Shown piece after piece: positions 338 to 52,259 of a stretch of 52,259 bases of DNA. The stretch lies in the IMG/VR virus record IMGVR_UViG_3300030106_001108, positions 1 to 52,259 of that record; one strand, written 5' to 3'. The stretch's first letter is position 1. Every line of letters begins with the position of its first letter. Below the pieces are notes generated by a model. It was not told the origin of the DNA, searched no databases, and worked only from the letters and a program-made list of their open reading frames with translations. The position numbers and the translations under genes were made by a program. The stretch comes from a virus (lineage: Duplodnaviria; Caudoviricetes).

Positions 338-433
338 AAGCTGTTACTTATATACTCTGGTGGAAAAAAGAAAAAGCAAAAATTAATTTTCTAGACATTT
401 AGCCAATAGGGTAATAGGGCAACGACCGTGGAG

Positions 434-590
434 CATCTCCACTGGTCCTTTTTTTGGGGTTATTGGCTGGGCTATTACGGGGCTATTACCACCGAACAGG
501 TAATAGGGTTTAAAATGGGTGGTTTATGGTAATAGTTATGCTAAAACATGTATTAGTATTTAGCGAAGCTATAGACATCTCCACTGGTCC
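434..590. repeat. 15-bp direct repeat CATCTCCACTGGTCC (434-448, 576-590) flanking a TAATAG/CTATTA cluster
   Basis: Exact copies read from the sequence. Confidence 0.85.
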
Positions 591-614: not shown

Positions 615-826
615 ACGGACAAAGACACACGAACAAAAATATATTGACCCGCACAAAGACACATGGTCCATGGTACATGATCCCTAAACCAAAGACATGG
701 CCAATACGATCAATAGTGCACAGATCACGATCTTGATCTCAAAGACAAAGACATCACGATCAGGATCCGCATCCCAAAGACACCGAACCATGGACCATGG
801 CACATGGCATCACGATCATGATCTCT
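615..826. repeat. AAAGACA/GATC/CATG-rich block 1
   Basis: AAAGACA at about 621, 655, 691, 741, 747 and 776, with many GATC and CATG tetramers. Confidence 0.8.
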
Positions 827-838
827 TTATAAACGCAC

Positions 839-862
839 AAAAAAAGGGGGCTTACGCCCCCC
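839..862 (-). terminator. Intrinsic terminator of 869..1096
   Basis: Minus strand GGGGGC-GTAA-GCCCCC followed by T7, just past the stop codon. Confidence 0.85.
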
Positions 863-868: not shown

Positions 869-1096
869 TTAGCCTAACACTAAACTTTTGATTTTATTTA
901 AATCGTAGTTTAGGTCAGTTTTACCGTAGCCCAACGTTTTATAGTGAGCTAACGCATTTTCGTAGGACATACCATTAACCGCTTTAGCACGGCTAACGTT
1001 ATGATCTGAACGAGCTTTACCGCTTACGAAAGTAAGCTTACCCTGACCGACTTTAGGGGCGACCGACCCTTTAACAGCTTTATTTAATTTAGCCAT
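869..1096 (-). CDS. Small basic protein (75 aa), paralogue of 1574..1807; probable early gene
   Basis: Shares MAKLN, HN..RAK.V.G..Y.NALA.YK..GYGKTDLNYD with 1574..1807; has its own promoter and terminator. Confidence 0.8.
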   Translation of the reverse strand: MAKLNKAVKGSVAPKVGQGKLTFVSGKARSDHNVSRAKAVNGMSYENALAHYKTLGYGKTDLNYDLNKIKSLVLG

Positions 1097-1247: not shown

Positions 1248-1256
1248 AAGGGAAAA

Positions 1257-1270
1257 AGTAAGTACTTACT
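1257..1270. promoter_or_regulatory. Perfect 14-bp palindrome AGTAAGTACTTACT (operator-like)
   Basis: Identical copies at 1996-2009 and 2041-2054; the operator role is inferred. Confidence 0.65.
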
Positions 1271-1280
1271 ATCACTGAAA

Positions 1281-1406
1281 CGCGAGCAGAGCTCGCGATC
1301 CAGATCGTCGTCGCCTACGGCGACGACACAAAGACATTAAGACAAAGACACAAAGACAAAGACAAAGAACCAAAGACAAGGAACTATGCATCATGATCAC
1401 GATCGC
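1281..1406. repeat. GC hairpins plus AAAGACA/GATC block 2
   Basis: CGCGAGC-AGA-GCTCGCG (1281-1297), GTCGTCGCC-TAC-GGCGACGAC (1307-1327), then tandem AAGACA units to about 1380. Confidence 0.8.
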
Positions 1407-1417: not shown

Positions 1418-1443
1418 AAAAAAATCCCCCGTTACCGAGGGAT
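1418..1443 (-). terminator. Intrinsic terminator after the 22-aa ORF
   Basis: Minus strand ATCCCTCG-GTAA-CGGGGGAT followed by T7. Confidence 0.7.
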
Positions 1444-1448: not shown

Positions 1449-1517
1449 TTAACTACCTAAGTAACAGATACTTAGAGCTATACCGAACATTACTAGAAAG
1501 TATAATATAATTTCCAT
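1449..1517 (-). CDS. 22-aa hydrophobic peptide MEIILYFLVMFGIALSICYLGS (not in the ORF track)
   Basis: Hand translation; upstream AGGTAGGT resembles the RBS of 1574..1807; followed by a terminator. Confidence 0.55.
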   Translation of the reverse strand: MEIILYFLVMFGIALSICYLGS

Positions 1518-1544
1518 TTTACCTACCTATTTATTAATTAATAT

Positions 1545-1566
1545 AAAGGGGGGCATACGCCCCCCC
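1545..1566 (-). terminator. Terminator-like hairpin after 1574..1807 (short T tract)
   Basis: Minus strand GGGGGGC-GTAT-GCCCCCC-TTTAT. Confidence 0.7.
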
Positions 1567-1573
1567 GCCTAGC

Positions 1574-1807
1574 CTAGCTTACTAGTAACCTACCGCCCCT
1601 AATATCGTAATTAAGGTCAGTTTTACCGTAGCCGATACTTTTATAATACGCTAGGGCGTTAGCGTAGGTATAACCGCCTACTTTTTTAGCCCTATTAATA
1701 TTATGAGACGCCCCGTTTTTATTAACGTAAGTTAATTTAGCGGTAGCGTTAATATTAGCTACGTTTACTTTAACGCTAGGTTTTTTATTACTATTTAATT
1801 TAGCCAT
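1574..1807 (-). CDS. Small basic protein (77 aa), paralogue of 869..1096
   Basis: Shared GYGKTDLNYD and NALA.YK motifs; AGGT RBS; own promoter. Confidence 0.8.
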   Translation of the reverse strand: MAKLNSNKKPSVKVNVANINATAKLTYVNKNGASHNINRAKKVGGYTYANALAYYKSIGYGKTDLNYDIRGGRLLVS

Positions 1808-1864
1808 AATTTTACCTATTTATTAGGGGGCTATTTTTAACGTAAGCCCCTTTAACGTAAGTAT

Positions 1865-1894
1865 ATTATAACCTTATTTAGTAAGTAAAGTAAA
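1865..1894 (-). promoter_or_regulatory. Promoter TTTACT-18-TATAAT for 1574..1807
   Basis: Plus strand AGTAAA 1889-1894 and ATTATA 1865-1870. Confidence 0.6.
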
Positions 1895-1953
1895 GTATTT
1901 ATTTAATTATTTATAAAATAAAGTATATAAAATTTATATACTTTTTTATTTAA

Positions 1954-1982
1954 TTTACTTTACTTTTTACTAAAAATATGAT
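1954..1982 (+). promoter_or_regulatory. Divergent promoter TTTACT-17-TATGAT
   Basis: TTTACT 1954-1959, TATGAT 1977-1982. Confidence 0.6.
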
Positions 1983-1986
1983 ACGT

Positions 1987-2070
1987 AAAAAAGTTAGTAA
2001 GTACTTACTTTTTTCCCTGCGGGGCACACACAAAAAAGTTAGTAAGTACTTACTTTTTTCCCTGCGGGGC
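1987..2070. repeat. Perfect 39-bp direct repeat (1987-2025, 2032-2070), each holding the 14-bp palindrome
   Basis: AAAAAAGTTAGTAAGTACTTACTTTTTTCCCTGCGGGGC twice, with a 6-nt spacer. Confidence 0.95.
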
Positions 2071-2076: not shown

Positions 2077-2170
2077 GCGAGCAGAGCTCGCACACACAGG
2101 CACCAGAGTCGCGACATGATCGCGACAGACGCGACAGACGCGACACATGATCTACGGATCTACTGATCAC
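2077..2170. repeat. GCGAGCAGAGCTCGC hairpin plus CGCGACA/GATC block 3
   Basis: 15-mer identical to 1282-1296; repeated CGCGACA and GATC. Confidence 0.8.
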
Positions 2171-2314: not shown

Positions 2315-2662
2315 ATGAGAGAATACTTTGAATACATAAAACCCGTATGTCCGTACTCACTAGAGTCATACGATAATAACAAACTACTAGTATTAGACTA
2401 TGATCCACGTTCCTTAGAGCATTACTATAATATTATAGACCGTTATGATGCTATTTTATTTAAGTGTCACCCCTCAACCGATCGCGACTGCCTTATATCC
2501 ATAGTCGAGGATCTAGCCGACGAACGCCCATGTGCCATGTGGTTTTGGTCACATCCCGACGACAAACATTATTCTACTCCTATGCCTAGTATAATTATGC
2601 AGAATAAAGTAAACTTAAAAAAAGCTCGTAAGGAATATTTCAAAAAATTAAATGGAAAATAA
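2315..2662 (+). CDS. Hypothetical protein (CPY...HPD motifs, weakly DUF1415-like)
   Basis: 115-aa ORF overlapping the next gene; family call tentative. Confidence 0.6.
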   Translation: MREYFEYIKPVCPYSLESYDNNKLLVLDYDPRSLEHYYNIIDRYDAILFKCHPSTDRDCLISIVEDLADERPCAMWFWSHPDDKHYSTPMPSIIMQNKVNLKKARKEYFKKLNGK

Positions 2663-4904
2663 ATATAAACCTTTAGGTTATCAAGATTTACTAGATCGGT
2701 TAGAGTATAAAGAAATGTTGGAACGCATGAGCTCAACCACGGACCCTGAGTTTGCTAGACCACCAACGAGAATGGGGGATATTTATCCTAGGGAACCTGG
2801 ACCTACAGAAAAGTTTGGCAACCTTATTGGTAAAGGTTTATTAAAACTGCCTTACGTATTTGAAGATGAACGCTCAGCTATGTCAACTGGACAAGACACA
2901 GCTAATGTATTAGCTTTTACCCCTGGAATAGGAAACGTACTCGGTTACCTTGAAGGACAAAAAATGACTGATGAGGGCAGTCCTTTATTAGGTAGCGTTA
3001 TAACAGGGCTTTCAGCTGGTTTTGGACCAGTGGCTAAAGGATCAGGGTCAATACCTACGCCTCCAGTAAAAGCCTCCCCTACACCTAAAGGTTTAGAACA
3101 CAAAGTACTGCACACCGCTGACCGTCCTAAAGAAATAAAAAATGCGGCAAAATGGGACGCTGAATCACAAGCTGAAGATACAACAGAAGTCTTAGATATT
3201 TTCACTGGAGCAAGTCCATACATAAACCGTAAAGGTTTAATGCCTTTAAGGTACGGGGACAATGATACACAAATGACTAGCCAAATAGCTTTATTTGAAT
3301 CAGATTTATATACGCCTAAAAATAGAAATAAATTATTCCCTATAGAAAACATATTTCAAGCTATGAGGCGTTATGGGGTAACGGGTAAAGGTAGCGTAAA
3401 CCAAAACGTAAAAAGACAAATAGAAGATTTTATATCTCCTGAATTTATAGCTAACAACCCTAAAGCAACCCCAGCTTCAGTGATGCAGGAACTACAGAAA
3501 AATGCACCTAAAATACACGAAACACATGCATATTACAATCCTCAAAGTACAATGGGAGAATATGACCCAAGAGGTGATTCACTAGGTTATTCGCAGCAAA
3601 CAACTAGAAGACCACGTAACGACCTTGATGATCCTACTCTCACACCCGAGGAGTCTGTAGAACAAACGGATTATGCTTACGGTGAGCGTGCATTTAGTAT
3701 GTTTGATGACGGACGTATTTACGGTAAAAAACCCACCCTTGATGAGCCTGAACCTAAAGTAAGTTTTGTTACAGGTGAATATCACGGTGATGTAGCAAGA
3801 GGCAGGTTAGATATACACGGAACAAAACAATCTGGTGGCGAAAATAGATATATGCACTCAAGATATACACTAGAAGATATAGGTGATGACGCTAACGTAT
3901 ATGTAAAACAAGAATCTCAAAGTGACGCTTATAGTTTAAGTAGAGATCAAGACGCGATAGCTGCGAGGGTATCAGGTAATAAAGACGGTGTAGGTATGAG
4001 CGATATGGAGAGTATCCAGTATGAATATTCTTATCCTGTTCTTGAAGGGGACGAAGTTTTATTCGATAGAATAAAAAGTGGAGATTTTACAGCGGTAGGT
4101 CAACTGTTAAAATCTAGAGACCACACAAGTGGCTCTGGAGCTACATTATACAATTATTTAAAAAATACTGGTAAACTTGACGATTTCAATAATGAATTTG
4201 GTATGTTATTAAAAGTCAATAGTGATGAACTAGATGAAGCAAAACGTATTTTAAGGGCTAAAAATGAAGGAGACCCTGGATACTACCAAGCTTTGGACGA
4301 TTTTAATGAAATTACTGATAGAAACAGACAACAAGAACTTAGATTATTAACTAAATACAGTAAAGAATTAGAAAAAAATATAAAAACTTTAAACTTACCC
4401 AGAAGCGCAGACTGGTTCACTGACGATTTTAAATTAGATTTACAAACTGCGGTAAAAAATGATTCACCGTACGCATTATTTCCTATAAATGCTAGAGCGT
4501 TAGCCCCTCCTTCTGGTAACACACAAGTAATACCACCTAAATTGGTTCCTTTTACAATAAGAAAATTCAAAGATAAAAAGAACGTTAGGCTCGACTTTGA
4601 CGAAGATGGTAAATTTTTAGGTGTATCACAAAACATAGACGGAAAATTTAGAAGAGTATTATTCGCTGAACCTAACCCTACTGATGTTAATCGAGCTCGT
4701 AGCTATACTGATTTATATAAAAGAGCTATAAAACAAACCGAACAAGACTATGGAGTAAAACTTAACCCTACTAAGTACACTGACGAGTTCGATCAAGAGT
4801 ATTTAAAAATAATACTCACCCCAGAATTAAAATCATCTTTTCAAACGTTTAGAATGAAAGATGGTGGAGCAGCAAGCATACTGCCTTTAAAATATGGATT
4901 CTAA
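2652..4904 (+). CDS. Large hypothetical protein, possibly virion-internal
   Basis: 750 aa; Gly-rich hydrophobic segment near the N-terminus; C-terminal MKDGG...LKY motif shared with 35041..37269. Confidence 0.75.
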   Translation: MENKYKPLGYQDLLDRLEYKEMLERMSSTTDPEFARPPTRMGDIYPREPGPTEKFGNLIGKGLLKLPYVFEDERSAMSTGQDTANVLAFTPGIGNVLGYLEGQKMTDEGSPLLGSVITGLSAGFGPVAKGSGSIPTPPVKASPTPKGLEHKVLHTADRPKEIKNAAKWDAESQAEDTTEVLDIFTGASPYINRKGLMPLRYGDNDTQMTSQIALFESDLYTPKNRNKLFPIENIFQAMRRYGVTGKGSVNQNVKRQIEDFISPEFIANNPKATPASVMQELQKNAPKIHETHAYYNPQSTMGEYDPRGDSLGYSQQTTRRPRNDLDDPTLTPEESVEQTDYAYGERAFSMFDDGRIYGKKPTLDEPEPKVSFVTGEYHGDVARGRLDIHGTKQSGGENRYMHSRYTLEDIGDDANVYVKQESQSDAYSLSRDQDAIAARVSGNKDGVGMSDMESIQYEYSYPVLEGDEVLFDRIKSGDFTAVGQLLKSRDHTSGSGATLYNYLKNTGKLDDFNNEFGMLLKVNSDELDEAKRILRAKNEGDPGYYQALDDFNEITDRNRQQELRLLTKYSKELEKNIKTLNLPRSADWFTDDFKLDLQTAVKNDSPYALFPINARALAPPSGNTQVIPPKLVPFTIRKFKDKKNVRLDFDEDGKFLGVSQNIDGKFRRVLFAEPNPTDVNRARSYTDLYKRAIKQTEQDYGVKLNPTKYTDEFDQEYLKIILTPELKSSFQTFRMKDGGAASILPLKYGF

Positions 4905-6408
4905 TCTAAAAGATTTACCTGAATCAATACTACGTGAACACCTTGAACTAACCGAAAGGTTAGAACAACTTGAAAAAGTAGAACGTTGTCAAACTGGTTT
5001 TATGGATTTTGTAAAAGACCAGTGGCCACAGTTCATAGCTGGTGCACATCACAAAAAAATGGCTGACGCTTTTGACCGTATAGCAACAGGTAAAATAAAA
5101 CGACTCATTATTAATATGCCTCCACGTCATACTAAAAGTGAGTTTGCTAGTCATTACTTTCCCGCTTATTTAGTAGGACGTAACCCAAACTTAAAAATAC
5201 TACAAGCTACACACACCGCAGATTTAGCAGTAAAGTTTGGACGTAAAATTAGGGACTTGATGTTAACGGATGATTATCAAAACGTATTCCCTGATGTACT
5301 TATAAACCCAGACTCAAAAGCAGCAGGTAAATGGGAAACTCAAGATAAACGTAACCCTAAACTAAAAGGTGAATATTATGCTGCTGGTGTGGGCGGTGCA
5401 CTAGCGGGTAGAGGTGCGGACTTATTTATTATTGACGACCCACACAGTGAACAAGATGCCATGAATCCTAAAAGCATGGATGACACGTACGACTGGTACA
5501 CTAGCGGACCGCGTCAAAGGTTACAGCCAGGAGGGGCTATAGTAATAGTGATGACCCGCTGGAATATTAACGACCTCACGGGTAGATTACTTAGAGACGC
5601 AGCACGTGACCCTAAAGCTGACCAGTGGGAAGTTATAGAACTACCCGCTATACTGCCTAGTGGTAAGCCCTTATGGCCAGAGTATTGGTCATTAGAAGAA
5701 ATAGAAAGTGTAAAAGCTAGTTTACGTGGTGGACCAAAATGGCACGCACAATACATGCAGAATCCTACCAGTGAAGAAGGAGCATTAATAAAACGTGAGT
5801 GGTGGATGGAGTGGAAAAAAGAAAAGCCACCAGTGTGTGATTATTTAATACAAAGTTATGACACAGCGTTTTTAAAAAGTTCTAGTGCGGACTACTCAGC
5901 TATTACTACGTGGGGAGTTTTTTACCCAGAGGGAACTATAGGCGATGAAATATACGACGGTACAGTAGCACACATAATTTTACTAGACTGTATAAAAGGT
6001 AAATATTCATTCCCTGAATTAAAAGGCGTAGCCCTAGAACAGTATCATGAGTGGACACCTGACACAGTAATTATAGAGAGTAAAGCTAGTGGCATACCGC
6101 TTACACAAGAATTACGCAATATAGGAATACCCGTACAAAACTTTACACCCAGTAAAGGAAATGATAAGATTGCTAGAGTTAACGCTAGTACACCTTTGTT
6201 TGAGTCAGGTCTAGTATGGGCACCTGACACTAAATGGGCTAACGAGGTTATTGAGGAGTGTGCGATTTTTCCTGCTGGAGAAAACGATGACTTAGTCGAC
6301 TCTACTACTCAAGCCATGTTACGTTTTAGACAAGGTGGGTTTGTAAAATTACCTAGCGATTGGGAAGAAGATGAACTATACTACAAACGTAAAGTAAGTT
6401 ATTATTAA
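4894..6408 (+). CDS. terL: Terminase large subunit
   Basis: Walker A-like MPPRHTKS, Walker B IIDDP, coupling motif MTRW, nuclease motifs SYDTA and DDLVDSTTQA. Confidence 0.97.
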   Translation: MDSNLKDLPESILREHLELTERLEQLEKVERCQTGFMDFVKDQWPQFIAGAHHKKMADAFDRIATGKIKRLIINMPPRHTKSEFASHYFPAYLVGRNPNLKILQATHTADLAVKFGRKIRDLMLTDDYQNVFPDVLINPDSKAAGKWETQDKRNPKLKGEYYAAGVGGALAGRGADLFIIDDPHSEQDAMNPKSMDDTYDWYTSGPRQRLQPGGAIVIVMTRWNINDLTGRLLRDAARDPKADQWEVIELPAILPSGKPLWPEYWSLEEIESVKASLRGGPKWHAQYMQNPTSEEGALIKREWWMEWKKEKPPVCDYLIQSYDTAFLKSSSADYSAITTWGVFYPEGTIGDEIYDGTVAHIILLDCIKGKYSFPELKGVALEQYHEWTPDTVIIESKASGIPLTQELRNIGIPVQNFTPSKGNDKIARVNASTPLFESGLVWAPDTKWANEVIEECAIFPAGENDDLVDSTTQAMLRFRQGGFVKLPSDWEEDELYYKRKVSYY

Positions 6409-17554: not shown

Positions 17555-20500
17555 ATGGCAACTTATGTAAATAATCTCAGGTTAAAAGAAATATCCACAG
17601 GAGATGAGTCGGGTACTTGGGGCACTAGCACTAATACTAACTTAACTTTAGTAGGTGAAGCATTCGGTTACGCAACTAAAGCTGTAGCTAACGCTTCAAC
17701 AGATACACTCACTATACCAGACGGCAGTGAAACCGACAGCGAACCTAGAAGAATGTACCTCAAACTCACAGGTGGAGGTCAAGCTTGTACTGTGACTTTA
17801 GCACCAAACACAGTTTCTAAAGTTTGGTTAATTGAAAACGCAACAAGTTATACACTCACAATGTCACAAGGTAGTGGTGCCAATGTAGCAATATTAGCAG
17901 GTCAGGTAAAAATGATAGCTACAGACGGAGCAGGTTCTGGTGCAGCAGTTTACGACTTACTTCAAGACTTAGCTATACCAGATTTATTTATAGACGATGA
18001 TTTAAAATTACAATCAGATGGAGCTATTATAAGTTTTGGTGCAGACGGAGATATAACACTTACACACACAGCCGATACAGGTTTAACTACTAACGGCACT
18101 TTTCAAGCCACAACCATCACTGCAACTACAGCTTTTGTACCAGATGCTAGTGACGGAGCTGCATTAGGTACAAGTTCGCTTGAGTTTAGCGATTTATTTT
18201 TAGCAGACGGTGCAGTTATAAATTTAGGTGCTGATCAAGACACCACTTTAACTCACGTAGCTGACACAGGTATATTACTTAACAGTACAAGACAATTACA
18301 GTTTGGTGATTCTGGTACATATATACACCAATCAGCAGATGGAGTACTAGACCTAGTTTCAGACACTGAAATAGAAATAAACGCTACTACTATTGATATA
18401 AACGGTAATGCAGACGTATCAGGAACAGTTACCGCTACTGGTACTTCTGTTTTTGCTAGTCTTGACATTTCAGGAGATATAGATGTAGACGGAACTACTA
18501 ACTTAGATGCAGTAGATATTGATGGAGCTGTAGATGTAGCAGGTATTATTACTACAAGCACACCTGGAAGTAACAATGTAAGATTAGGTGATGGTGCTGG
18601 TGCTGCAATAGAAAGTGGCGGAACTAGAAATGTTGCCATAGGCTCTAATGCTGGTGCTGCAATAACTACTGGTGATTATAATGTAGCTATTGGATATAAT
18701 GCTCTTAATGCAGAAGATACAGGAACTAGGTCAACGGCTGTAGGTTATTTTGCTTTAGATACACAAAACAATGATGACGCTAACCATAATACAGCATTAG
18801 GCTTTACTGCGTTAGAAAAAACAACAACTGGTCAATATAATACAGGTTTAGGTTCACAAGCACTTAATGCTAATACAACTGCTAATAACAATACAGCAGT
18901 TGGATATAATTCTTTAGTGTTAAACACTACAGGTAGACAAAATGTAGCAGTAGGTTCTACGAGCCTTGATGCAAACACAACTGGAGAAAACAATACTGCT
19001 GTAGGATACGATGCCCTTTCTGCTAATACAACAGCAGATGAAAATACAGGAGTCGGAGGTTTTGCTCTTAATGCAAATACTACAGGTGATAAAAATACAG
19101 CAGTTGGTTTATATTCTTTACTTAGCAATACTGAAGGCACACACAATGTTGCTATTGGTAGAAGTGCTTTACAGAGCAACACTACAGCAAGTCATAATGT
19201 AGCAGTAGGCTCTACTTGCCTTGATGCTAATACCACAGGTGCTCAAAATGTTGGTATAGGCAGAGATACTTTATCAGCTAATACAACTGGTCAAGATAAC
19301 GTAGGTGTTGGTTATGCATCACTTCAAGCAGCCACTACAGCAAGTAACAATACAGGGCTTGGCTCTAAATCATTAAGGTCAAACACTACGGGGGCTCAAA
19401 ACACAGCAATAGGTGCTGAGTGTGCAGACGCAATTACTACAGGCTCTAACAATACAGCTGTTGGTTATGAAGCTATGGGTAAGCTAACAACTGGTACTGA
19501 TAATGTTGCTATGGGTAGAGCAGCTTTACTAGACACTACATCAGGAGCAGGTAATGTTGCTATAGGTGTTGAATCGTTAGAAAACAATACAGGTAATGAA
19601 AACACAGCAATAGGTAAACATGCTTTAAGAGGTAATACGACTGGTGGTAGTAATGTTGCTATCGGTATTAATGCTCTAAATACTGATGATACAGGAAGTT
19701 ATACTGTAGCTATAGGTAGAAACGCTTTATTAAATCAAAATGCTGGAGATAATTCTGCAAACGTAGCTGTTGGTTATAATACAGGTTCAGCTATTACAAC
19801 AGGAACAAGTAATACTTTAATCGGTTATATTGTTGGTGATGCAATAACAACTGCTGGTGGTAATACAGCAATGGGATATGCAGCATTAACTAACTGTACC
19901 ACAGGCGACTCTCATACTATTATGGGTTTTGAAGCTGGTGAAGATTTAAGTACGGGAGCACACGCTGTTTTCTTAGGTTATAGAGCAGCCATGAACTCAA
20001 CCACAGGTAATTATAATGTTGTTATAGGTAGTAATTCTGCCGCACAAATGACTACAGGTAGTAGTAACACAGTACTAGGTTATGGTGCTGGTACTTCAAT
20101 AGTAGATTCATCTAGTAATATATTAATAGGTTATGATGCTGAAAGTAGTAGTGGTGGTTCTAGTGAATTAGTCATAGGTGTTTCTGTAGTTGGTAAAGGC
20201 GATAACACAGGTTTTATATCTGCGAATGGAAGTATATATCAAGGTAATAATTCATCATCTTGGGCAACAACTTCTGACAGAAGAATTAAAAAGAATATAG
20301 AAGATAATAACATAGGTTTAGAAGCTATAAATAAAATACAAGTTAAAAACTTTGAATATAGAACTAAAGATGAAATAACTGATTTTGATAATGTTGATTC
20401 AGTAACAGTTAATAAAGAAGGAGTGCAAGTAGGAGTTATAGCACAAGAAATAGAAAATGTTTTACCAGATGTAGTCAAAGAAGAATCAACAGGAGTAAAA

Positions 20501-37270: not shown

Positions 37271-38527
37271 ATGAGTTTTTTAAAAAAATTAGGACAAATG
37301 TTAAGTAACAGACCTGATAGAGATGGTCCAAGTCACGGGGGCGGTAGTCCAGATATAATAAAACCGCCAGACAACAGAGTTATGGGTGACCAAGGTTTAG
37401 GTGGTTATCTTAACCCTAATCAATTAGAAATGTTTACCAACCCACCTGTACCAAATAACCAAGCTGGTCTTATGAATATGGCTAACTTATTACAGCAGCA
37501 ACAAGATACGTTTGGTGGTATGCTCACTTATCCCTCTCCCCCTAGTGATGATGGTACAGGCGGTGGTGGTACTGGTGGCGGTGGTGGCACTGGTGGTGGC
37601 ACTGGTGGTGGCACTGGTGGCGGTGGTGGCACTGGTGGCGGTGGAGGTACTGGTGGCGGTGGTGGCACTGGTGGCGGTGGAAGTAGAGATGAAAGAGATC
37701 GTCAGGAAATTATAGATGAAATTAGAAGGAGAAGAGAAGAGGAAGAAAGGAGAAGAAGAGAAGTTCCACCAGAAGATTTTAAATTTCCACCAGAGGGTAT
37801 CCCAGGCATACCTGTCGATATCCCAGGAGTACCGCCTATGACACCGCCTATGACACCGCCTATGACACCGCCTATGACACCGCCTATGACACCGCCTATG
37901 ACACCGCCTAGAAGAGATGAGCAAATATTTGTACCTCCTAAAGATATAGGTGACGTAGATATGCCGAGATTAAATATGCCTAGGTTTCAAGGTTTACGTG
38001 ATTTACCACAAAATTTTGATATACCTGTTCCTAGATTACCAACAGGTATGGAAACTTTAGTATCTCCAGATATTTTTATGAATAGAAGAAATACAGAAAG
38101 GCAAAACTTCGTGGCTGGTGGTGCACCAGCAAAAATACTCAACGCTATAGCAAGAGCAGGTAAAGGAGTAAAGAAAAAACTTGGCGAAGCAGACAGAAAA
38201 TTTGAAGAAGCAAGACAGAGAAGCGGAATTTTTCCTGGCACATCAGACCCAGTCAATAATCCATTTACATATTTAGATGCTAAGATAATGGGGGGTCTTA
38301 TGACACCGCCTGTTGTATTAGCAGGTATAAATGAAAAACGAAAAAGAGATGATTTAAGTTTGGCTAACTCTTATGGTCAAAAAGCTGCAGCAGAAGGCAA
38401 AACTTTAGAAGAGGCTATTAGACAATATACTGAAGATGCAAAAGTTCAAGGTCTCCCTACAGTTCAATATTATTTAATGGAAATAGAAAACGGTTACAAT
38501 CAAGCAATGCAAAATACTTCACGTTAA
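37271..38527 (+). CDS. Low-complexity protein with Gly-rich and PPMT repeats
   Basis: 418 aa; last gene of the plus-strand operon; converges on the helicase. Confidence 0.75.
   Translation: MSFLKKLGQMLSNRPDRDGPSHGGGSPDIIKPPDNRVMGDQGLGGYLNPNQLEMFTNPPVPNNQAGLMNMANLLQQQQDTFGGMLTYPSPPSDDGTGGGGTGGGGGTGGGTGGGTGGGGGTGGGGGTGGGGGTGGGGSRDERDRQEIIDEIRRRREEEERRRREVPPEDFKFPPEGIPGIPVDIPGVPPMTPPMTPPMTPPMTPPMTPPMTPPRRDEQIFVPPKDIGDVDMPRLNMPRFQGLRDLPQNFDIPVPRLPTGMETLVSPDIFMNRRNTERQNFVAGGAPAKILNAIARAGKGVKKKLGEADRKFEEARQRSGIFPGTSDPVNNPFTYLDAKIMGGLMTPPVVLAGINEKRKRDDLSLANSYGQKAAAEGKTLEEAIRQYTEDAKVQGLPTVQYYLMEIENGYNQAMQNTSR
37552..37681 (+). repeat. GGN/ACT tandem repeats encoding (G3-5T)n
   Basis: Read directly from the sequence. 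Confidence 0.9.
37831..37910 (+). repeat. Perfect 12-bp tandem repeat ACCGCCTATGAC, 6 full copies plus 8 bp
   Basis: Read directly; encodes (PPMT)n. Confidence 0.95.
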
Positions 38528-39964
38528 CCAGTCTTTTAATTTATCTTCACCTAATATAGTACTAGCTATTGATTGTTTTTTACGTAAAGCTTTAACTATT
38601 TTTTCATCAACAGTACGTTCACACACTATATCAATATATGTTACCTTGTTAGTTTGACCTATACGGTGGGCACGGTCTTCTGATTGTAAACGTTTTTCTA
38701 AATCATAGTTATTACTAAAGTAAATAACAGTTTTAGCAGCAGTCAAAGTTATGCCGTAACCACCAGTTTGAGTATTACCTACAAAAAATCTCATAGGACT
38801 GTCTGGGTTTTGAAACTCATTTATAACATACTCTCTACGTTCTTGTGGCACATCACCATAGTATGTACCTACAGAATTTTCACCATAGATATCTATTAAT
38901 AGTTTTTCTATCCTTTTTATATCGTGACGGTAATTAGCCCAAATGATCACTTTACCGTCAGTTTCTTCTAAAATAGAGGACAATTCTGAGACTCTATTAT
39001 TAGGTAACTCGGTAATACTACCGTCATCCGTCCCTATGAATCCGCATGAAATTTGATGTAAACGTATTATTTGAGTCATTATGTGATTTATGGTCACTAA
39101 CTTTTTATTAGCTAATTGAGTAGCAGCAAATTTTTGTAATTCTCTATACGCTTTAGTTTGTTCAGGTGTCATCTCTATTTCTCTACGTATATAAATTTTT
39201 TCTGGTAAATCTAAACAGTCTTTTTTCAAAACCCTGTGGCTAAACTTACCTAAAGTTTCATTTAACTCATCTAAATTTTTGTAACCTGTAACAAATTTAA
39301 AAGTTCTGCCTTGACCAGTCATTTCTTTCATGTCTGCATATCTAGCACGGAATGCGTAATAACTGCTAAACCCTAATAAAGCTGGATCTAAAAACATGCA
39401 CTGACTATACAAATCAAGTGGACTTTTAGTTATAGGTGACCCAGTTAAAATTCTTCTATAATGTGCATACTTACCTAAACGCACACAACTCTGTGTTCTT
39501 TTAGCTGATGGATTTTTTATAGTAGTACTTTCATCTATGATAAACATAGTTCGGTTAGCCTGTATAAATTTATTTGCATATTGACAACCTTTTTTAGTGC
39601 TAAAAGCTTCTATATTCATAACTAGTATTTTTAATTTTTTATCATATTGAAATAAATTTTCTAATTGTTTTAGAAACTTTTTAGTATGGCTACTGCTCCA
39701 TTTTACAACTTCATATTCTACTTCGTCTGGTATGTGTGCTAGTAGTTCTTTATTTACCCATGTACTATATACACCTTTAGGTGCAACAATCAAAACGTTG
39801 TTTAATTTATTGTTATTATATAAATAAACAAAATTATCAATAACTACTTTTGATTTACCACAACCCATCTCCATAAACAAAGCGTATTGATTTCTATCAC
39901 AAGATTCGTTAAGTGCTTCTAGTTGATGGTCGTAGGGTTTAGTTTTGAATTTATACTTATCCAT
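38519..39964 (-). CDS. SNF2-family (SF2) helicase
   Basis: MEMGCGKS, IIDESTTIKN, LTGSP, QSEDRAHRIGQ. Confidence 0.93.
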   Translation of the reverse strand: MDKYKFKTKPYDHQLEALNESCDRNQYALFMEMGCGKSKVVIDNFVYLYNNNKLNNVLIVAPKGVYSTWVNKELLAHIPDEVEYEVVKWSSSHTKKFLKQLENLFQYDKKLKILVMNIEAFSTKKGCQYANKFIQANRTMFIIDESTTIKNPSAKRTQSCVRLGKYAHYRRILTGSPITKSPLDLYSQCMFLDPALLGFSSYYAFRARYADMKEMTGQGRTFKFVTGYKNLDELNETLGKFSHRVLKKDCLDLPEKIYIRREIEMTPEQTKAYRELQKFAATQLANKKLVTINHIMTQIIRLHQISCGFIGTDDGSITELPNNRVSELSSILEETDGKVIIWANYRHDIKRIEKLLIDIYGENSVGTYYGDVPQERREYVINEFQNPDSPMRFFVGNTQTGGYGITLTAAKTVIYFSNNYDLEKRLQSEDRAHRIGQTNKVTYIDIVCERTVDEKIVKALRKKQSIASTILGEDKLKDWLT

Positions 39965-40147
39965 ATCTCGTCTCTTATATAGTTATATAATAAACTAGGT
40001 CATAAAAAATAAAAAGGATATTGCATGTTTTAGCTTAATAGCCTACTAATAGCTTTTGCTAATAGCCCTTAAACCCTCTATTCTACGATGTTTTTTACCA
40101 CCCCTATTACTGATATTACCTTTTTTTAATATTTTTATTGATTATGC

Positions 40148-40175
40148 TTTACTTATTTTATTTTCCCTTTATAGT
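40148..40175 (+). promoter_or_regulatory. Candidate promoter TTTACT-16-TATAGT for the replication operon
   Basis: Same hexamers as 1219-1247. Confidence 0.5.
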
Positions 40176-40211
40176 AATAGGTAATTAAATTTAGCCGTTT
40201 AATTAATACCC

Positions 40212-40310
40212 AAAACCGTATTCGTCATAGGTACGGTTTTTACTAAAACAGGGCAATGTAATTATGCACCCCCTGTTTTTAAGTGGGGGGTAATAACCAT
40301 ACCCCTCACT
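40212..40310. other. Three consecutive inverted repeats
   Basis: AAAACCGTA/TACGGTTTT, AAAACAGGG/CCCTGTTTT, AGTGGGGGGTA/TACCCCTCACT. Confidence 0.75.
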
Positions 40311-45529: not shown

Positions 45530-45863
45530 TAGTGCTAAGGCTAAAGGACGTAAGCTACAGCAGTGGTTTACTAATAAATTAGTAGAGATACTTAAACTTG
45601 ATGCAGAAGATTTAGAAAGCAGACCTATGGGTAGTCAAGGTGAAGATATAATTATGGGTAAACAGTCACGTGATAAGTTTCCTTATAGTATAGAGTGTAA
45701 AAATCAAGAAGCAGTTAACTTGTGGAAAGCGTATGCACAAGCAGAAGAAAACTGTAAAGGTTACGAGCCTTTAGTAGTGCTTAAACGTAATAGAAGTAAA
45801 CCACTAGTATTACTTGAAGCTGAATATTTTATTAAATTACATGAGGAGAAAAATGAGAGCTGA
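45519..45863 (+). CDS. Holliday junction resolvase-like PD-(D/E)xK nuclease
   Basis: SAKAKGRKLQ, GEDI, IECKNQE; likely TTG start at 45519. Confidence 0.75.
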   Translation: MRPSSAKAKGRKLQQWFTNKLVEILKLDAEDLESRPMGSQGEDIIMGKQSRDKFPYSIECKNQEAVNLWKAYAQAEENCKGYEPLVVLKRNRSKPLVLLEAEYFIKLHEEKNES

Positions 45864-46701
45864 TTTAAATTTAAAAAGGGTAGATGATTTTAATAGGTTT
45901 ATGGTAGAAAGACATAATATATTTATACGTAAAGAGTTATCAAAACTACCATACCCATGGAGTCAAGACCCTATACTAACCGAGTTTAGTTTTTGTAACG
46001 TGTATCGTGAGTTAGACAAGGTAACTATATGGATAAGGGAAAACTGGAGAGAGCCACACGCTGACAACCCTAACCTACCTTTTGCTATGGCTATGGCTAG
46101 GCAAATAAATTGGCCAGACACTCTTGAGGAAATAGGTTTTCCTCATACGTTTGACCCTGAAAAAGTAAAAGCCATAATGCAGGCTAGAAAAGATAGGGGC
46201 GAAAAGGTATATACAGGGGCATACATGTTAACTGGTACGTTGGGTGGCACTAAGATAGAGCAAACCGTAGATAAAATACTGTTGCCTTTATATAAAAATT
46301 TTCCTAATGACTATAGTAGTTTAGAAAATTGTTGGAAAAGTTTTTTACCATACGCTGGGTTTAGTGATTTTATGTCTTACGAAGTAGTAACAGATTTACG
46401 ACACACTAAATGGTTAGCGGGAGCACCAGATATCATGACTTGGGCTAATCCTGGACCAGGAGCTATGAGAGGACTAAATAGAATATTTGGCAGGGAATTA
46501 AATAGTAAACAAAAGAAACCTTTATTTATACAAGAAATGAGAGATTTACTAGCCTTACTTAATAATGAGCCACTACCACTAGAGATGAGAGATATAGAAC
46601 ATTGTCTATGTGAGTTTGATAAATACGAGAGGGTACGTCTAGGTCAAGGTAGACCACGTGCTAAATATAAACCACGTGAATATACGGAGGATCTACTATA
46701 A
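45853..46701 (+). CDS. aGPT-Pplase1 / 5-hmdU DNA kinase helical-domain-like protein (thymine hypermodification)
   Basis: ERH.IF..K....PWS.DPIL..F.FCNVYRE.D, F..YEVVTD, GPGA.RGL, IEH.LCEFDKY; start after GAGGAG. Confidence 0.8.
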   Translation: MRADLNLKRVDDFNRFMVERHNIFIRKELSKLPYPWSQDPILTEFSFCNVYRELDKVTIWIRENWREPHADNPNLPFAMAMARQINWPDTLEEIGFPHTFDPEKVKAIMQARKDRGEKVYTGAYMLTGTLGGTKIEQTVDKILLPLYKNFPNDYSSLENCWKSFLPYAGFSDFMSYEVVTDLRHTKWLAGAPDIMTWANPGPGAMRGLNRIFGRELNSKQKKPLFIQEMRDLLALLNNEPLPLEMRDIEHCLCEFDKYERVRLGQGRPRAKYKPREYTEDLL

Positions 46702-47483
46702 TGATTATTTATATTCCAACTAGAGGCAGGGCAGACAACCAAGTTACCTTGTCATTTTTTCCAGAAGACATGCGTAAAGACGTAGTGTTAGTTATCGATG
46801 AAGATGAAAAACATTTATACGAAAATAAATACGATTGTAAATACATGGTTATACCTGAAGATATAAAAGGTATAGCTAAAAAACGTCAGTACATACATAA
46901 ACATACTGAGGATAAAAAGATAGTAATGTTAGATGATGATTTACGTTTTTATATACGTAAGTCTCCTACAGACTGGCATTTAAGATACTTAGAGCCTGAA
47001 GAGTATAAAGCTTTATTTGGTTTACTTGATAAGTGGCTAGACGATTATGCCCATGTAGGCGTAAGTGCTAGGGAGGGTAATAATAGAGTAGAACACCTAG
47101 CGGTAGAAAATACAAGATATATGAGGGTACTAGGCTATAACTTAGATATGTTTGATGGTATAGAGTTAGGCAGAGTTGATGTTATGGAAGACTTTGACAT
47201 AAATCTGCAATTATTGCGTCAAGGTAAGCCGAGTAAAATTAGCTACTATTACGCACAAGGTCAAAAAAGCTCTAACGCAGAGGGTGGCTGTAGTGAGTGG
47301 CGTACTATAGAAGTACATAACGCTGGGGCAGAAAAGCTACACGCCCTACACCCAGATTTTGTTAAGGTAGTAGAAAAAGAAACTAAAACTGCTTGGAATG
47401 GTTTGCCTCGTAAAGATGTAAATGTACAGTGGAAAAGAGCTTTTAAAAGTGGTCAGCAGGTAAAACAAGGAGGGCTGTGGTAA
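46701..47483 (+). CDS. GT-A fold glycosyltransferase, TET-associated (TAGT)/GREB1-like
   Basis: IYIPTRGR, GIAKKRQ, MLDDD (DxD), EDFD..LQLL..G, GGC, HP.FVK. Confidence 0.78.
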   Translation: MIIYIPTRGRADNQVTLSFFPEDMRKDVVLVIDEDEKHLYENKYDCKYMVIPEDIKGIAKKRQYIHKHTEDKKIVMLDDDLRFYIRKSPTDWHLRYLEPEEYKALFGLLDKWLDDYAHVGVSAREGNNRVEHLAVENTRYMRVLGYNLDMFDGIELGRVDVMEDFDINLQLLRQGKPSKISYYYAQGQKSSNAEGGCSEWRTIEVHNAGAEKLHALHPDFVKVVEKETKTAWNGLPRKDVNVQWKRAFKSGQQVKQGGLW

Positions 47484-48490
47484 TGGATGTTATAAACTGT
47501 AGAAATGTAAATGATGGGTTTATAAAAGCTATGGATATGCTATCTTTTGATCAACAAGATATAAGAGAAAGTAGAGCAGGTCAAGTAATAGAGCATGATA
47601 CACCAGTAGCTACGGTATTTAGTAAACCTTATGAAAGAGTTTTATTTGAAGAAGTAAGAGACGCTAATCCTTTCTTTCACTTTATGGAGGGGCTATGGAT
47701 GTTAGCGGGTCGTAATGATTTAGGGTTTGTAAGAAAGTACAATAAACGTATGTCTGAGTATAGTGACGACGGTATAAGTTTACATGGTGCATACGGCTAT
47801 AGATGGATAAAACATTTTAACGTTAATCAAATAGATGTAATAATTAAAAGATTGAAAAAAGATCCTACCGATAGACGTTGTGTTTTACAAATGTGGGACG
47901 CTAAGTCTGACCTCAACCGTGCTGGAGTAGATGTGCCTTGTAATACGTGTATATATTTTAAGATACGTAATAACGAGTTATTGATGACTGTAAGTAATAG
48001 GTCTAACGATGTTATATGGGGCACATTCGGGGCTAATATAGTACATATGTCTATGTTACAGGAATATGTGGCTAGTGCCTTAGATGTTAGTATCGGGGCG
48101 TATACTCAGGTTAGTGATAGTTTCCATGCTTATACCAATGTGTTTGATGAGATGCATGCTAGGCTTGAAGAGTTAGAATTATTTGATTTTTATTTTATGA
48201 AACATATAGAAAACCCATATGAAAATAGAGCTATAAACTATTACCCAATGGTAAACCAGACTAGTATAGTAGACTGGAATAAAGATTTAGATAAATTTTT
48301 AGAACGTAAACCTTTTGAAGATATGGACTTTGAAGATATATTCTTCAGTCATGTAGCTGTACCATTACAAGATGCTTGGGCATTACATAAACTAGGCGAA
48401 ACTGATGACGCTATGTCAGAAGTACAAGAGTGTATAGCTACTGACTGGGCAACAGCAGGCTTTGACTGGCTTATGAGGAGAGCTAAATGA
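47483..48490 (+). CDS. Thymidylate synthase-superfamily enzyme, likely dUMP hydroxymethylase
   Basis: RDANPFFH, AYG.RW, DRR.V, PCN, RSND..WG..GAN (Asn = uracil specificity), SFHAY. Confidence 0.85.
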   Translation: MDVINCRNVNDGFIKAMDMLSFDQQDIRESRAGQVIEHDTPVATVFSKPYERVLFEEVRDANPFFHFMEGLWMLAGRNDLGFVRKYNKRMSEYSDDGISLHGAYGYRWIKHFNVNQIDVIIKRLKKDPTDRRCVLQMWDAKSDLNRAGVDVPCNTCIYFKIRNNELLMTVSNRSNDVIWGTFGANIVHMSMLQEYVASALDVSIGAYTQVSDSFHAYTNVFDEMHARLEELELFDFYFMKHIENPYENRAINYYPMVNQTSIVDWNKDLDKFLERKPFEDMDFEDIFFSHVAVPLQDAWALHKLGETDDAMSEVQECIATDWATAGFDWLMRRAK

Positions 48491-52239: not shown

Positions 52240-52259
52240 ACGTACAGAGAAAGATCAGA

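What the first reader, a model, noticed from the sequence alone, without database searches (positions are those of the whole stretch)
1561..1978. Near-total avoidance of 5'-TC and 5'-TG on both strands, next to blocks built from those same dinucleotides
Seen: by hand count, 1561-1978 holds only about 8 TC/GA/TG/CA dinucleotides. After about 1710 the only one is the start codon's CAT. The four dinucleotides reduce to one rule: no T followed by C or G on either strand. The encoded protein has no E, Q, W or C, whose codons force these dinucleotides, and the RBS is AGGT rather than AGGAG. Blocks at 615-826, 1281-1406 and 2077-2170 are instead packed with GATC, CATG and GACA. The first unit (869-1260) is depleted more weakly. 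Inference: this phage encodes thymine hypermodification. If the bulky base is installed at T[C/G], early genes are kept unmodified for host RNA polymerase while the flanking blocks are maximally modified. That would be a sequence-programmed modification landscape acting as insulators, terminators (compare base J in kinetoplastids), ejection pauses or packaging marks.
Basis: partly seen in the sequence, partly recalled or inferred. Interest (0 to 1): 0.88.

Follow-up and report, generated by a model that had tools for sequence, protein, structure and literature searches.

The report
Modification-free early gene island in phage
A marine phage that chemically decorates its own thymines has stripped the decoration's target dinucleotides from one small, first-expressed gene unit, apparently so the host's RNA polymerase can read it at once.

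Summary
Window 1561-1978 holds 8 TC/GA/TG/CA dinucleotides. Shuffles give 87.3±6.9, and the lowest of 717 GC-matched windows has 48. The 77-aa gene at 1574-1807(-) has 8; its protein allows a minimum of 4, and synonymous resampling gives 37±4.

The window is an HTVC023P-type marine phage contig. It encodes a 5-hmdU DNA kinase, a dUMP-hydroxymethylase-like thymidylate synthase homologue and a glycosyltransferase. Published work places kinase-dependent thymidine hypermodification at T[C/G].

The island recurs in relatives:
- Four of five complete kinase-bearing relatives have an extreme island and one a mild one. Some of their genes sit at the absolute minimum count.
- It is absent in two same-family phages without the kinase.
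- It is absent in seven distant kinase-bearing phages.

Depletion hits the template strand first. A weaker template-strand depletion marks replication genes against structural genes in all six kinase-bearing genomes, and in neither kinase-less one.

Best reading (about 0.6): an immediate-early unit kept free of hypermodified thymine for host RNA polymerase. The GATC/CATG-rich flanking blocks are conserved, but their role is open. The modification itself was not measured.

The parts
1515..2014 (.). Core of the T[C/G]-free island. It holds 12 TS dinucleotides in 500 nt, counted on both strands. It spans the terminator, gene A, the 5'UTR, the promoter and the AT-rich upstream region.
   Evidence: shuffles give 103.6±7.4, and the lowest of 539 GC-matched windows has 65.
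1574..1807 (-). Gene A, a 77-aa basic protein of unknown function. A weak winged-helix-like fold is possible. Its TS count is 8, the minimum possible is 4, and 37 is expected.
   Evidence: No Pfam or PHROG hit. AF2 pLDDT 81.5. Best structural Z is 4.0.
1865..1894 (-). Sigma-70-like promoter TTTACT-18-TATAAT for gene A. The -35 hexamer is a TS-free variant of TTGACA.
   Evidence: 10 of 12 to consensus. The same TTTACT-N16-18-TATAAT lies upstream of the homologues in G006 and G007, and near-matches lie upstream in L007, L011, L012 and L015.
1814..1817 (-). Ribosome-binding site AGGT, 6 nt before the ATG. It avoids the GA of AGGAG.
   Evidence: Read.
1547..1566 (-). Intrinsic-terminator-like hairpin GGGGGGGCGTATGCCCCCC followed by a T-run, after gene A.
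1449..1517 (-). Tiny 22-aa hydrophobic ORF with an AGGTAGGT ribosome-binding site, lying between the two terminators.
   Evidence: translation. It is conserved in L001 but not in L002.
1424..1443 (-). Second terminator-like hairpin.
869..1096 (-). Gene B, a 75-aa paralogue of A. TS is depleted only on its template strand (O/E 0.41). The non-template strand is at 0.98.
845..862 (-). Terminator-like hairpin after gene B.
615..826 (.). TS-dense block 1: 78 TS against 52.5 expected. Built from GATC, CCATGG and CAAAGACA repeats.
1281..1406 (.). TS-dense block 2. It has two 3-nt-loop hairpins, seven (C)AAAGACA repeats, and a GATC cluster.
2077..2170 (.). TS-dense block 3, between the island and the packaging and structural genes.
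1987..2070 (.). Two 39-nt direct repeats, each carrying the 14-bp palindrome AGTAAGTACTTACT. A third, inverted copy lies at 1250-1271.
   Evidence: D7, I2, I3, I9.
1954..1982 (+). Divergent promoter-like site TTTACT-17-TATGAT pointing toward the structural genes. A similar site lies at 1219-1247.
   Evidence: It is a weaker match in L002.
39951..40250 (.). Second, milder TS-poor region (200-bp O/E 0.42-0.59). It lies between the divergent SNF2 helicase gene and the replication module and contains TTTACT-16-TATAGT.
   Evidence: The spot recurs about 5.5 kb upstream of the kinase gene in related loci.
45814..46701 (+). 5-hmdU DNA kinase homologue, 40.8% identical to the matching region of phage M6.
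46701..47483 (+). TAGT-like glycosyltransferase.
47477..48490 (+). Thymidylate-synthase homologue, a candidate dUMP hydroxymethylase.

Best explanation
The island is a small transcription unit read by host RNA polymerase. It runs from an AT-rich upstream region and the promoter TTTACT-18-TATAAT through the AGGT ribosome-binding site and gene A to its terminator. Selection has purged it of T[C/G] on both strands.

T[C/G] is the dinucleotide at which 5-hmdU-kinase-dependent thymidine hypermodification is installed in related systems. This stretch of virion DNA should therefore carry plain T or 5-hmU while the rest of the genome is decorated.

Inferred benefit: host RNA polymerase can bind, melt and elongate on the incoming, fully modified genome without meeting bulky bases, so gene A is made first and fast. 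The same pressure acts more weakly on gene B and on the replication module, on the template strand only. It does not act on structural genes. Those would be transcribed later from newly replicated DNA that is not yet hypermodified.

Shown: the depletion, its selection, its conservation, its strand order, and its co-occurrence with the kinase genes in the genomes examined. Inferred: that TS is this phage's modification motif, that the modification hinders the host polymerase, and that gene A is immediate-early.
For: Depletion beyond composition and coding.

Selection:
- L007 and L008 differ from the window at 50-51 of about 346 sites yet hold 7-8 TS. Random substitution gives about 36±4.6, with a minimum of 20 in 2000 trials.
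- Distant homologues sit at the absolute minimum: G007 5 of min 5 (41 expected); G010 5 of min 5 (49 expected) and 6 of min 6 (46 expected).
- Of 11 distinct gene A relatives, 9 have z ≤ -4.3 and 2 have z about -2.

Link to the modification system:
- The kinase family was found in 3 of 5 relatives' records searched. The 2 without it are 14-19 kb fragments.
- Among 5 complete kinase-bearing relatives, 4 have an extreme island (200-bp O/E ≤ 0.10) and 1 a mild one (0.37).
- Two same-family phages, HTVC023P and 023Pt_psg01, have no tblastn hit to the kinase, glycosyltransferase or TS homologue. Neither has an island: lowest O/E 0.53 and 0.62.

Motif identity: TS was reported as the hypermodified context in M6, ViI and phiW-14 (PMC6449724, passages). 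TG, and less so TC, was reported for dapT (PMC13458397, passages).

Transcription link:
- In 12 of 13 depleted genes the template-strand O/E is below the non-template O/E. Gene B is 0.41 against 0.98.
- In 34 control ORFs the template O/E is 0.96±0.09.
- Replication-module genes have template-strand O/E 0.83-0.94 against 0.99-1.04 for structural genes in 6 of 6 kinase-bearing genomes (Mann-Whitney p 7e-3 to 5e-7). The non-template strand shows no significant difference. In 0 of 2 kinase-less genomes is there a difference (p about 0.4).
- The TS-free promoter motif is conserved.

In vitro precedent: kinase phosphorylation of a 5-hmU template cut E. coli RNA polymerase output to 10% of that from 5-hmU DNA, while 5-hmU itself gave about 350% of T-DNA (PMC6457204, abstract and passages).

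Codon choice overrides usage: Arg is AGG three times (15% genome use) and never AGA (53%). GCA, ACA, GGA, TCA and CCA are not used.
Against: - No chemical or sequencing evidence that this phage's DNA is modified, or modified at TS. The specificity is borrowed from kinases 27-41% identical.
- Seven more distant kinase-bearing phages have no island: M6, Pam3 and G011-G015, with lowest O/E 0.53-0.78. The kinase alone does not demand one.
- Phages such as M6 evidently get transcribed without an island.
- L012 and L014 carry the gene with almost no coding depletion: 38-41 TS, close to the random value.
- Genome-wide, the template strand of most genes carries more TS than the coding strand: 6430 against 4427.
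- Early timing of gene A is not shown. The one RNA run laid covered parts of 2575-5707, not the island, and consisted of contigs.
- The six kinase-bearing genomes are relatives, not independent samples. The kinase-less controls have only 6-7 replication genes each.
- G008 reverses the strand order: non-template O/E 0.49, template 0.65.
Confidence: 0.6

Rival explanations
1. The island must stay unmodified for a DNA transaction other than transcription. Candidates are packaging initiation or genome ends (a pac or cos-like site next to the terminase genes), a replication origin that must melt, or binding of a regulator to the palindromes and TAATAG-type repeats. The GATC-rich blocks would then be modification-sensed packaging signals, in the manner recalled for P1 pac and Dam methylation.
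For: - In all five complete relatives the island sits directly upstream of the packaging module, in either orientation.
- It is AT-rich and repeat-rich, with 14-bp palindromes and iteron-like repeats.
- The GATC clusters are conserved in the blocks.
- The TS-free state of the promoter and upstream part is the most widely conserved piece. It holds even in L012, where the coding part is barely depleted.
Against: - The depletion follows the transcription unit from promoter to terminator and reaches the codon-level minimum inside the ORF.
- It is strand-ordered with respect to the gene's template strand.
- The same strand-specific signal extends to a whole gene module 40 kb away.
- No genome ends could be mapped. 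The runs found were held only as contigs.
Confidence: 0.15
2. The avoided dinucleotides are the target of something other than the phage's own modification. One option is a host or phage nuclease or defence with very short T[C/G]-type specificity. Another is an RNA-level constraint on the messenger, which would lack UC, UG, GA and CA, for example escape from an endoribonuclease.
For: - The dinucleotide set is its own reverse complement. A one-strand (RNA) rule and a two-strand (DNA) rule therefore cannot be separated inside the gene.
- The island genes are plausible anti-defence candidates, being small, basic and of unknown function.
Against: - The 171-nt non-coding stretch 1808-1978, which includes the segment between the two divergent -35 boxes, has 0 TS.
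- The set coincides exactly with the published hypermodification motif.
- The feature is absent in same-family phages without the kinase genes.
- No known ribonuclease with such dinucleotide specificity is recalled. This is recall, not a search.
Confidence: 0.07
3. The depletion is a by-product of AT-richness, amino-acid composition, or recent acquisition of foreign DNA with odd composition.
For: The region is AT-rich: GC is 0.30 overall and 0.17 upstream. The protein is rich in K, N, A and Y.
Against: - Shuffles, GC-matched windows and synonymous resampling all reject it.
- The depletion is maintained through 14-21% sequence divergence.
- It recurs in a different small-gene family in G009.
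Confidence: 0.02

Closest known systems
5-hmdU-kinase-dependent thymidine hypermodification of phages M6, ViI, phiW-14 and SP10 (Lee 2018; Lee 2021; Flodman 2019)
   Same: - It has a thymidylate-synthase homologue and a 5-hmdU DNA kinase next to the phage DNA polymerase.
- The kinase is 40.8% identical to the matching region of M6.
- TS was reported as the modified context in those phages.
- HTVC023P-type clades V, VIII and IX were already reported to carry this gene pair (PMC9599517, passages).
   Different: - Neither M6 nor Pam3 has a TS-free island.
- Here a TAGT-like glycosyltransferase sits beside the kinase. No aGPT-Pplase2, PLP or radical-SAM partner was seen among the ORFs scanned.
- The chemical nature of the base is unknown.
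Restriction-site (short-motif) avoidance in phage genomes
   Same: Selection removes a short DNA word that an enzyme would act on. This genome also shows the classical form: CCGG 0 observed against 35 expected, GGCC 7 against 45, GCGC 7 against 40.
   Different: The avoided word is the target of the phage's own modifying enzyme. It is a dinucleotide. It is avoided locally, in one transcription unit, and it is enriched next door.
Base J (glucosyl-hydroxymethyluracil) at transcription-unit borders in kinetoplastids
   Same: A bulky 5-hmU-derived base would be concentrated at the borders of transcription units, and a glycosyltransferase is present. Base J's restricted placement at transcription starts and stops is stated in the abstract listed (PMC4344527).
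   Different: Base J belongs to a eukaryotic system. Its placement depends on JBP hydroxylases, not on a dinucleotide rule. No effect of the blocks on bacterial transcription was tested here.
Immediate-early anti-defence genes on first-expressed DNA (T7 gene 0.3, T5 pre-early genes); recalled, not searched
   Same: Small genes with strong host-type promoters lie at a module border and are presumably expressed first.
   Different: Those phages do not use base modification to privilege these genes. The function and timing of gene A are unknown.
Dam-methylation-sensing GATC clusters (P1 pac site, oriC/SeqA); recalled, not searched
   Same: GATC is about 26 times denser in the blocks than in the rest of the genome: 39 against 1.5 per kb. 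The blocks lie next to the packaging genes.
   Different: The mark would be hypermodified T rather than methyl-A. No packaging data are available.

Membership tests
5-hmdU-kinase-dependent thymidine hypermodification system | 5-hmdU DNA kinase (HMUDK) | tested here: met
   Pfam PF18723 scores 5.3e-48 (164 bits; cut-off 25) at 45814-46701. It is 40.8% identical to M6 by tblastn.
5-hmdU-kinase-dependent thymidine hypermodification system | dUMP hydroxymethylase (thymidylate-synthase homologue) supplying 5-hmdU | tested here: inconclusive
   Pfam Thymidylat_synt scores 2.7e-21 at 47477-48490. Whether it hydroxymethylates rather than methylates was not tested.
5-hmdU-kinase-dependent thymidine hypermodification system | Downstream transferase that replaces the phosphate (aGPT-Pplase2, or a PLP or radical-SAM enzyme) | tested here: inconclusive
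   None was seen among the 18 window ORFs scanned in Pfam. Many small ORFs were not scanned. A TAGT-like glycosyltransferase (6e-26) and a cytidylyltransferase-like protein are present instead.
5-hmdU-kinase-dependent thymidine hypermodification system | Hypermodified thymidine present in virion DNA at T[C/G] | not testable with these tools
   Known only from the literature on other phages. All sequencing runs found were held as assembled contigs.
Sigma-70-type early promoter plus intrinsic terminator unit | -35 and -10 hexamers at 16-18 nt spacing, and a GC hairpin followed by a T-run | tested here: met
   TTTACT-18-TATAAT matches 10 of 12 positions. Terminators lie at 1547-1566, 1424-1443 and 845-862; 13 terminator-like hits against 1.7±1.4 in shuffles. 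The motif is conserved in relatives. Function was not tested.
Winged-helix / small DNA-binding protein (gene A) | Recognisable fold or family match | tested here: inconclusive
   No Pfam or PHROG hit. Foldseek against the PDB found nothing at E ≤ 0.001. The best VIA Z is 4.0, with several winged-helix domains at Z 2.7-3.5. There are weak profile hits (about 4e-7) to CapR/DUF4379 repeats.
Base-J-like transcription insulator (TS-dense blocks) | A modified base that stops or blocks RNA polymerase at unit borders | not testable with these tools
   Only position and density are shown: the fraction of T in TS context is 0.6-0.8 in the blocks against 0.32-0.35 overall.

The most novel reading that the evidence does not exclude
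TS density is a genome-encoded programme that uses the phage's own hypermodification as a clock.
- On the incoming, fully decorated genome only TS-free or template-TS-poor units can be transcribed: the island first, then the replication module.
- The structural genes lie behind TS-dense, GATC/CATG-rich plugs. In these plugs the modified T lies mostly on the template strand for late-gene-directed transcription, so the genes stay silent.
- Replication then makes 5-hmU DNA, which is an excellent template, and the late genes switch on.
- Hypermodification follows, silences the DNA again and marks it as ready for packaging.

This would be a replication-coupled early-to-late switch written in dinucleotides.
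Probability: 0.25. Interest if true: 0.9.

Novelty: new variant of a known kind. Interest (0 to 1): 0.8.

Why it matters
Thymidine hypermodification has been treated as a blanket shield against restriction enzymes. Here the sequence suggests that a phage lineage shapes where the shield is laid down: none over a first-expressed gene unit, less on the template strand of replication genes, and very dense in flanking blocks.

If this is confirmed, dinucleotide content would predict both the modification landscape and the temporal class of genes in an abundant group of ocean phages, the HTVC023P type that infects SAR11. It would be a bacterial-virus counterpart of base-modification control of transcription. 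It would also give a design rule for expressing genes from hypermodified DNA.

The claim is directly testable on native virion DNA.

Tried and rejected
- **Public runs.** 20 of the 23 listed rows hold part of the stretch, and all are kept as contigs. I laid four. The single RNA run gave pieces within 2575-5707 and none on the island. Contigs give no depth, ends or timing, so this says nothing about expression or genome termini.
- **Function of gene A.** Nothing came from Pfam or PHROGs, from the word-based search (26 hits, all at least 74% identical over the aligned stretch, unnamed), from the profile search of 1.84 billion representatives (9 hits), from Foldseek against the PDB, from the VIA wide search (best Z 4.0), or from the ESM Atlas.
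- **Rfam on 300-2400.** No match reached a gathering score. There are no tRNAs.
- **Generality.** I looked for TS-free islands in M6, Pam3 and five distant kinase-bearing contigs and found none. Within ±10 kb of the kinase gene in 80 loci (1.28 Mb), only 2 loci had a 200-bp window below O/E 0.3. Both were at the promoter region homologous to window 39950-40250.
- **Strand bias of the blocks.** I considered it as evidence for a directional barrier. I down-weighted it because the bias has the same sign as the genome-wide skew of 6430 against 4427, G007 is balanced and G006 is weak.
- **Circular closure of the contig.** An ORF runs off the 3' end but does not continue in frame at the 5' end, and complete relatives are 60-63 kb. 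The window is probably incomplete.
- **Literature.** Searches for an earlier description of TS-free islands found none. One search was badly framed and gave nothing useful.
Full report
**What the window is.** The window is the whole record held, a single contig of 52,259 bp. It is a tailed-phage genome related to the HTVC023P-type Pelagibacter phages. Nucleotide similarity over the terminase and portal genes is shown. By tblastn, DNA polymerase is 49-53% identical, TerL 57-63% and the SNF2 helicase 45-55%.

Nearly all genes lie on the + strand. The packaging and structural module runs 2315-38527. An SNF2 helicase lies on the minus strand at 38519-39964. The replication and nucleotide module runs from 40333 to the contig end. 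The contig is probably incomplete: an ORF leaves the 3' end out of frame with the 5' end, and complete relatives are 60-63 kb.

**The observation.** There are 8 TC/GA/TG/CA in 1561-1978 against 87 expected, and 1 in 1710-1978. Mononucleotide shuffles give 87.3±6.9 (minimum 66 of 5000). The 717 GC-matched windows elsewhere in the genome average 78.8, and the lowest has 48. The 171-nt non-coding stretch 1808-1978 has none, against 24.2±3.7 in shuffles.

The four longest TS-free gaps of the genome are all here. With the protein held fixed and codons drawn from the genome's usage, gene 1574-1807(-) should carry 37.2±4.3. It carries 8, and the lowest number its protein allows is 4. Four control ORFs are unremarkable.

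Codon choice goes against the genome's habits. Arg is AGG three times and never AGA. GCA, ACA, GGA, TCA and CCA are not used. AT content and amino-acid composition therefore do not explain the depletion.

**Anatomy**. Read on the minus strand, the region is two tandem units.
- *Unit 2:* TS-dense block 3 (2170-2077); two 39-nt repeats, each with the palindrome AGTAAGTACTTACT; an AT-rich upstream region; promoter TTTACT-18-TATAAT (1894-1865); a 5'UTR with a small hairpin; the ribosome-binding site AGGT; gene A (77 aa); a GC-only terminator hairpin (1566-1547); a 22-aa hydrophobic ORF (1517-1449); and a second terminator (1443-1424).
- *Unit 1:* TS-dense block 2 (1406-1281); a TS-poor promoter region; gene B (75 aa, a paralogue of A with 55-56% identity); a terminator (862-845); and TS-dense block 1 (826-615).

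Promoter-like sites on the + strand (1219-1247, 1954-1982, 2245-2272) point toward the structural genes. The blocks are built from GATC, CCATGG and (C)AAAGACA repeats. Although they make up 0.8% of the genome, they hold 17 of 95 GATC and 11 of 121 CATG. A second, milder TS-poor region (39951-40250; O/E 0.42-0.59) lies between the divergent helicase and replication genes and contains TTTACT-16-TATAGT.

**The modification genes and the motif.** Pfam finds a 5-hmdU DNA kinase (5e-48), a TAGT-like glycosyltransferase (6e-26) and a thymidylate-synthase homologue (3e-21) at 45814-48490. Nearby are an HD-type dNMP-phosphatase-like protein and a cytidylyltransferase-like protein. The kinase is 40.8% identical to the matching region of phage M6.

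From the literature:
- Flodman et al. 2019 (passages read) found that restriction sites resistant in M6, ViI and phiW-14 DNA share TG or TC. They attributed this to the kinase.
- Lee et al. 2021 (section 15 read) showed that M6 gp54 phosphorylates about 23% of the 5-hmU in SP8 DNA and protects NcoI sites.
- A 2026 NAR paper (passages read) reports a diaminopropane-thymine mostly at TG, less at TC, and rarely at TT or TA.
- An mSystems 2022 paper (passages read) reports the TS plus aGPT-Pplase1 gene pair in HTVC023P-type clades V, VIII and IX.

I found no paper describing islands free of that context.

**Conservation and selection.** A pattern scan of viral contigs matched 82 stretches, of which 14 encode a relative of the small protein.
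- Every locus long enough to show the region downstream of gene A (all but the truncated L004 and L014) carries the tandem A/B pair, and in each locus the only strongly TS-poor stretch sits on gene A and its upstream region.
- Of 11 distinct gene A sequences, 9 have z ≤ -4.3 under synonymous resampling, and two (L012, L014) have z about -2. Gene B ranges from z +0.6 to -3.4.
- L007 differs from the window at 50 of 346 aligned sites yet has 7 TS. Random substitution would give 35.9±4.6, with a minimum of 20 in 2000 trials. L012 and L014, with 38-41 TS, are near the random value.
- The TS-dense blocks flank both units in L007, L011, L012 and L015. The fraction of T in TS context is 0.6-0.8 in the blocks, 0.00-0.1 in the island core (up to about 0.2-0.36 across the coding part in L011 and L012) and 0.32-0.35 overall.

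Five complete relatives whose kinase is 63-72% identical all have family members. Four have extreme islands (lowest 200-bp O/E 0.10, 0.05, 0.0 and 0.0-0.04; gaps up to 287 nt) and one a mild island (0.37).
- In G007 and G010 the island genes sit exactly at the minimum their proteins allow: 5 of 5, 5 of 5 and 6 of 6, against 41-49 expected.
- In G009 the island holds a different small-gene pair, so the property belongs to the locus, not to one protein family.
- The island is always immediately upstream of the packaging module, in either orientation.
- TTTACT-N16-18-TATAAT or a near match precedes the depleted gene in the window, G006, G007 and several loci.

**Association with the kinase.** The kinase family was found in 3 of 5 relatives' records searched. 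The two without it are 14-19 kb fragments. HTVC023P and 023Pt_psg01 share the backbone but give no tblastn hit (E ≤ 1e-3) to the kinase, the glycosyltransferase, the TS homologue or the small proteins. They have no island: lowest O/E 0.53 and 0.62, longest gaps 45 and 41 nt.

The kinase is not sufficient, however. M6, Pam3 and five more distant kinase-bearing contigs, two of them only 68% and 81% complete, have none: lowest O/E 0.53-0.78.

**Why transcription.**
- *Extent.* The depletion matches a transcription unit and reaches the codon-level minimum.
- *Strand order.* Where depletion is partial, it is on the template strand. Gene B has template O/E 0.41 and non-template 0.98. L012 and L014 have 0.51-0.55 against 1.10. 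In all, 12 of 13 depleted genes have the lower value on the template strand, and G008 is the exception. In 34 other ORFs of the window the template O/E is 0.96±0.09 and the non-template 0.92±0.13.
- *Genome-wide gradient.* In all six kinase-bearing genomes, replication-module genes have lower synonymous template-strand TS (0.83-0.94) than structural genes (0.99-1.04), with Mann-Whitney p from 7e-3 to 5e-7. The non-template strand shows no significant difference (p 0.23-0.79). The two kinase-less relatives show no template-strand difference (1.03 against 1.01, p about 0.4). ORFs with ambiguous bases were skipped in that run. The six genomes are relatives, and the controls have only 6-7 replication genes.
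- *In vitro precedent.* Vaníková et al. 2019 (abstract and passages) report that bulky major-groove groups block E. coli RNA polymerase. Their 5-hmU templates gave about 350% of normal output. Kinase phosphorylation of those templates cut output to 10% of the 5-hmU level.

Together these fit a gradient from the island, through gene B and the replication genes, to the structural genes. The gradient reflects how much each class depends on transcription from the parental, decorated genome.

**What stays open.**
- Nothing here measures the modification, the timing of gene A or the effect of the blocks.
- The blocks' TS lie mainly on the strand that is template for transcription toward the structural genes in the window, five loci, G008, G009 and G010. 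G006 is weak and G007 balanced. The genome-wide skew has the same sign, so I treat this only as a lead.
- A packaging or origin role for the island and blocks remains possible.
- The function of protein A is unknown. The AF2 model has pLDDT 81.5, with a strand, three helices and a strand. No convincing structural match was found. There are weak profile hits to repeats of CapR/DUF4379 proteins.

**Verdict.** The roles proposed for the flanking blocks are untested. I rate it a new variant of a known kind (motif avoidance and base-modification control of gene expression), with high interest because it is directly testable on native DNA.

Noticed in passing
whole window; also G006-G010, HTVC023P, 023Pt_psg01: Four-base palindromes that contain no T are almost purged from the window. 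CCGG is 0 observed against 35 expected, GGCC 7 against 45, GCGC 7 against 40, and CGCG 11 against 25. The five kinase-bearing relatives show the same, except GCGC in G006. The two kinase-less relatives do not (CCGG 25/29 and 67/56). T-containing palindromes are near expectation. This fits a phage that relies on thymine modification and must remove sites the modification cannot protect. Separately, 023Pt_psg01 has 0 CATG against 144 expected.
   Followed up: partly
window 1449-1517 (-): A 22-aa hydrophobic ORF (MEIILYFLVMFGIALSICYLGS) with an AGGTAGGT ribosome-binding site lies between the two terminators after gene A. It is nearly identical in L001 and absent in L002.
   Followed up: partly
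window 1250-1271, 1995-2016, 2040-2061: Three copies of a TS-free 14-bp palindrome, AGTAAGTACTTACT, are present. The two on the right sit in 39-nt direct repeats, and the left copy is inverted relative to them. Each lies just downstream of a + strand promoter-like site, which is an operator-like placement.
   Followed up: no
window 1282-1296 and 2077-2091: An identical 15-nt hairpin, GCGAGCAGAGCTCGC (6-bp stem, 3-nt loop), opens blocks 2 and 3. A second hairpin with a 3-nt loop, GTCGTCGCC-TAC-GGCGACGAC, follows it in block 2.
   Followed up: no
window 400-540, 1821-1835, 40040-40190: TS-free words of the type GGTAATAGGG, GCTATTAC and CTAATAGC recur in both regulatory regions and in the 5'UTR of gene A. 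They may be binding sites for a regulator.
   Followed up: no
G009 19261-20400: In this complete relative the TS-free island holds a different pair of small paralogous genes (proteins beginning ..KYxLNAKIVLG..). One of the pair is almost TS-free and the other is only weakly depleted, which mirrors the A/B pattern.
   Followed up: partly
protein A residues 24-39; P0032, P0033: The segment KLTYVNKNGASHNIN resembles the repeated KLDYICKNGHEHSI unit of CapR/DUF4379 (probable treble-clef zinc finger) proteins, with E about 4e-7. The Cys positions are not Cys in protein A. Cys codons contain TG, so TS avoidance may have cost the protein a zinc site.
   Followed up: no
window ends (52232-52259 and 1-337): An ORF starts 28 nt before the contig's 3' end, and an open frame enters at the 5' end, but the two are out of frame. 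The kinase gene is about 8 kb from the island across the junction here, against 16-18 kb in relatives. About 8-10 kb is probably missing.
   Followed up: partly
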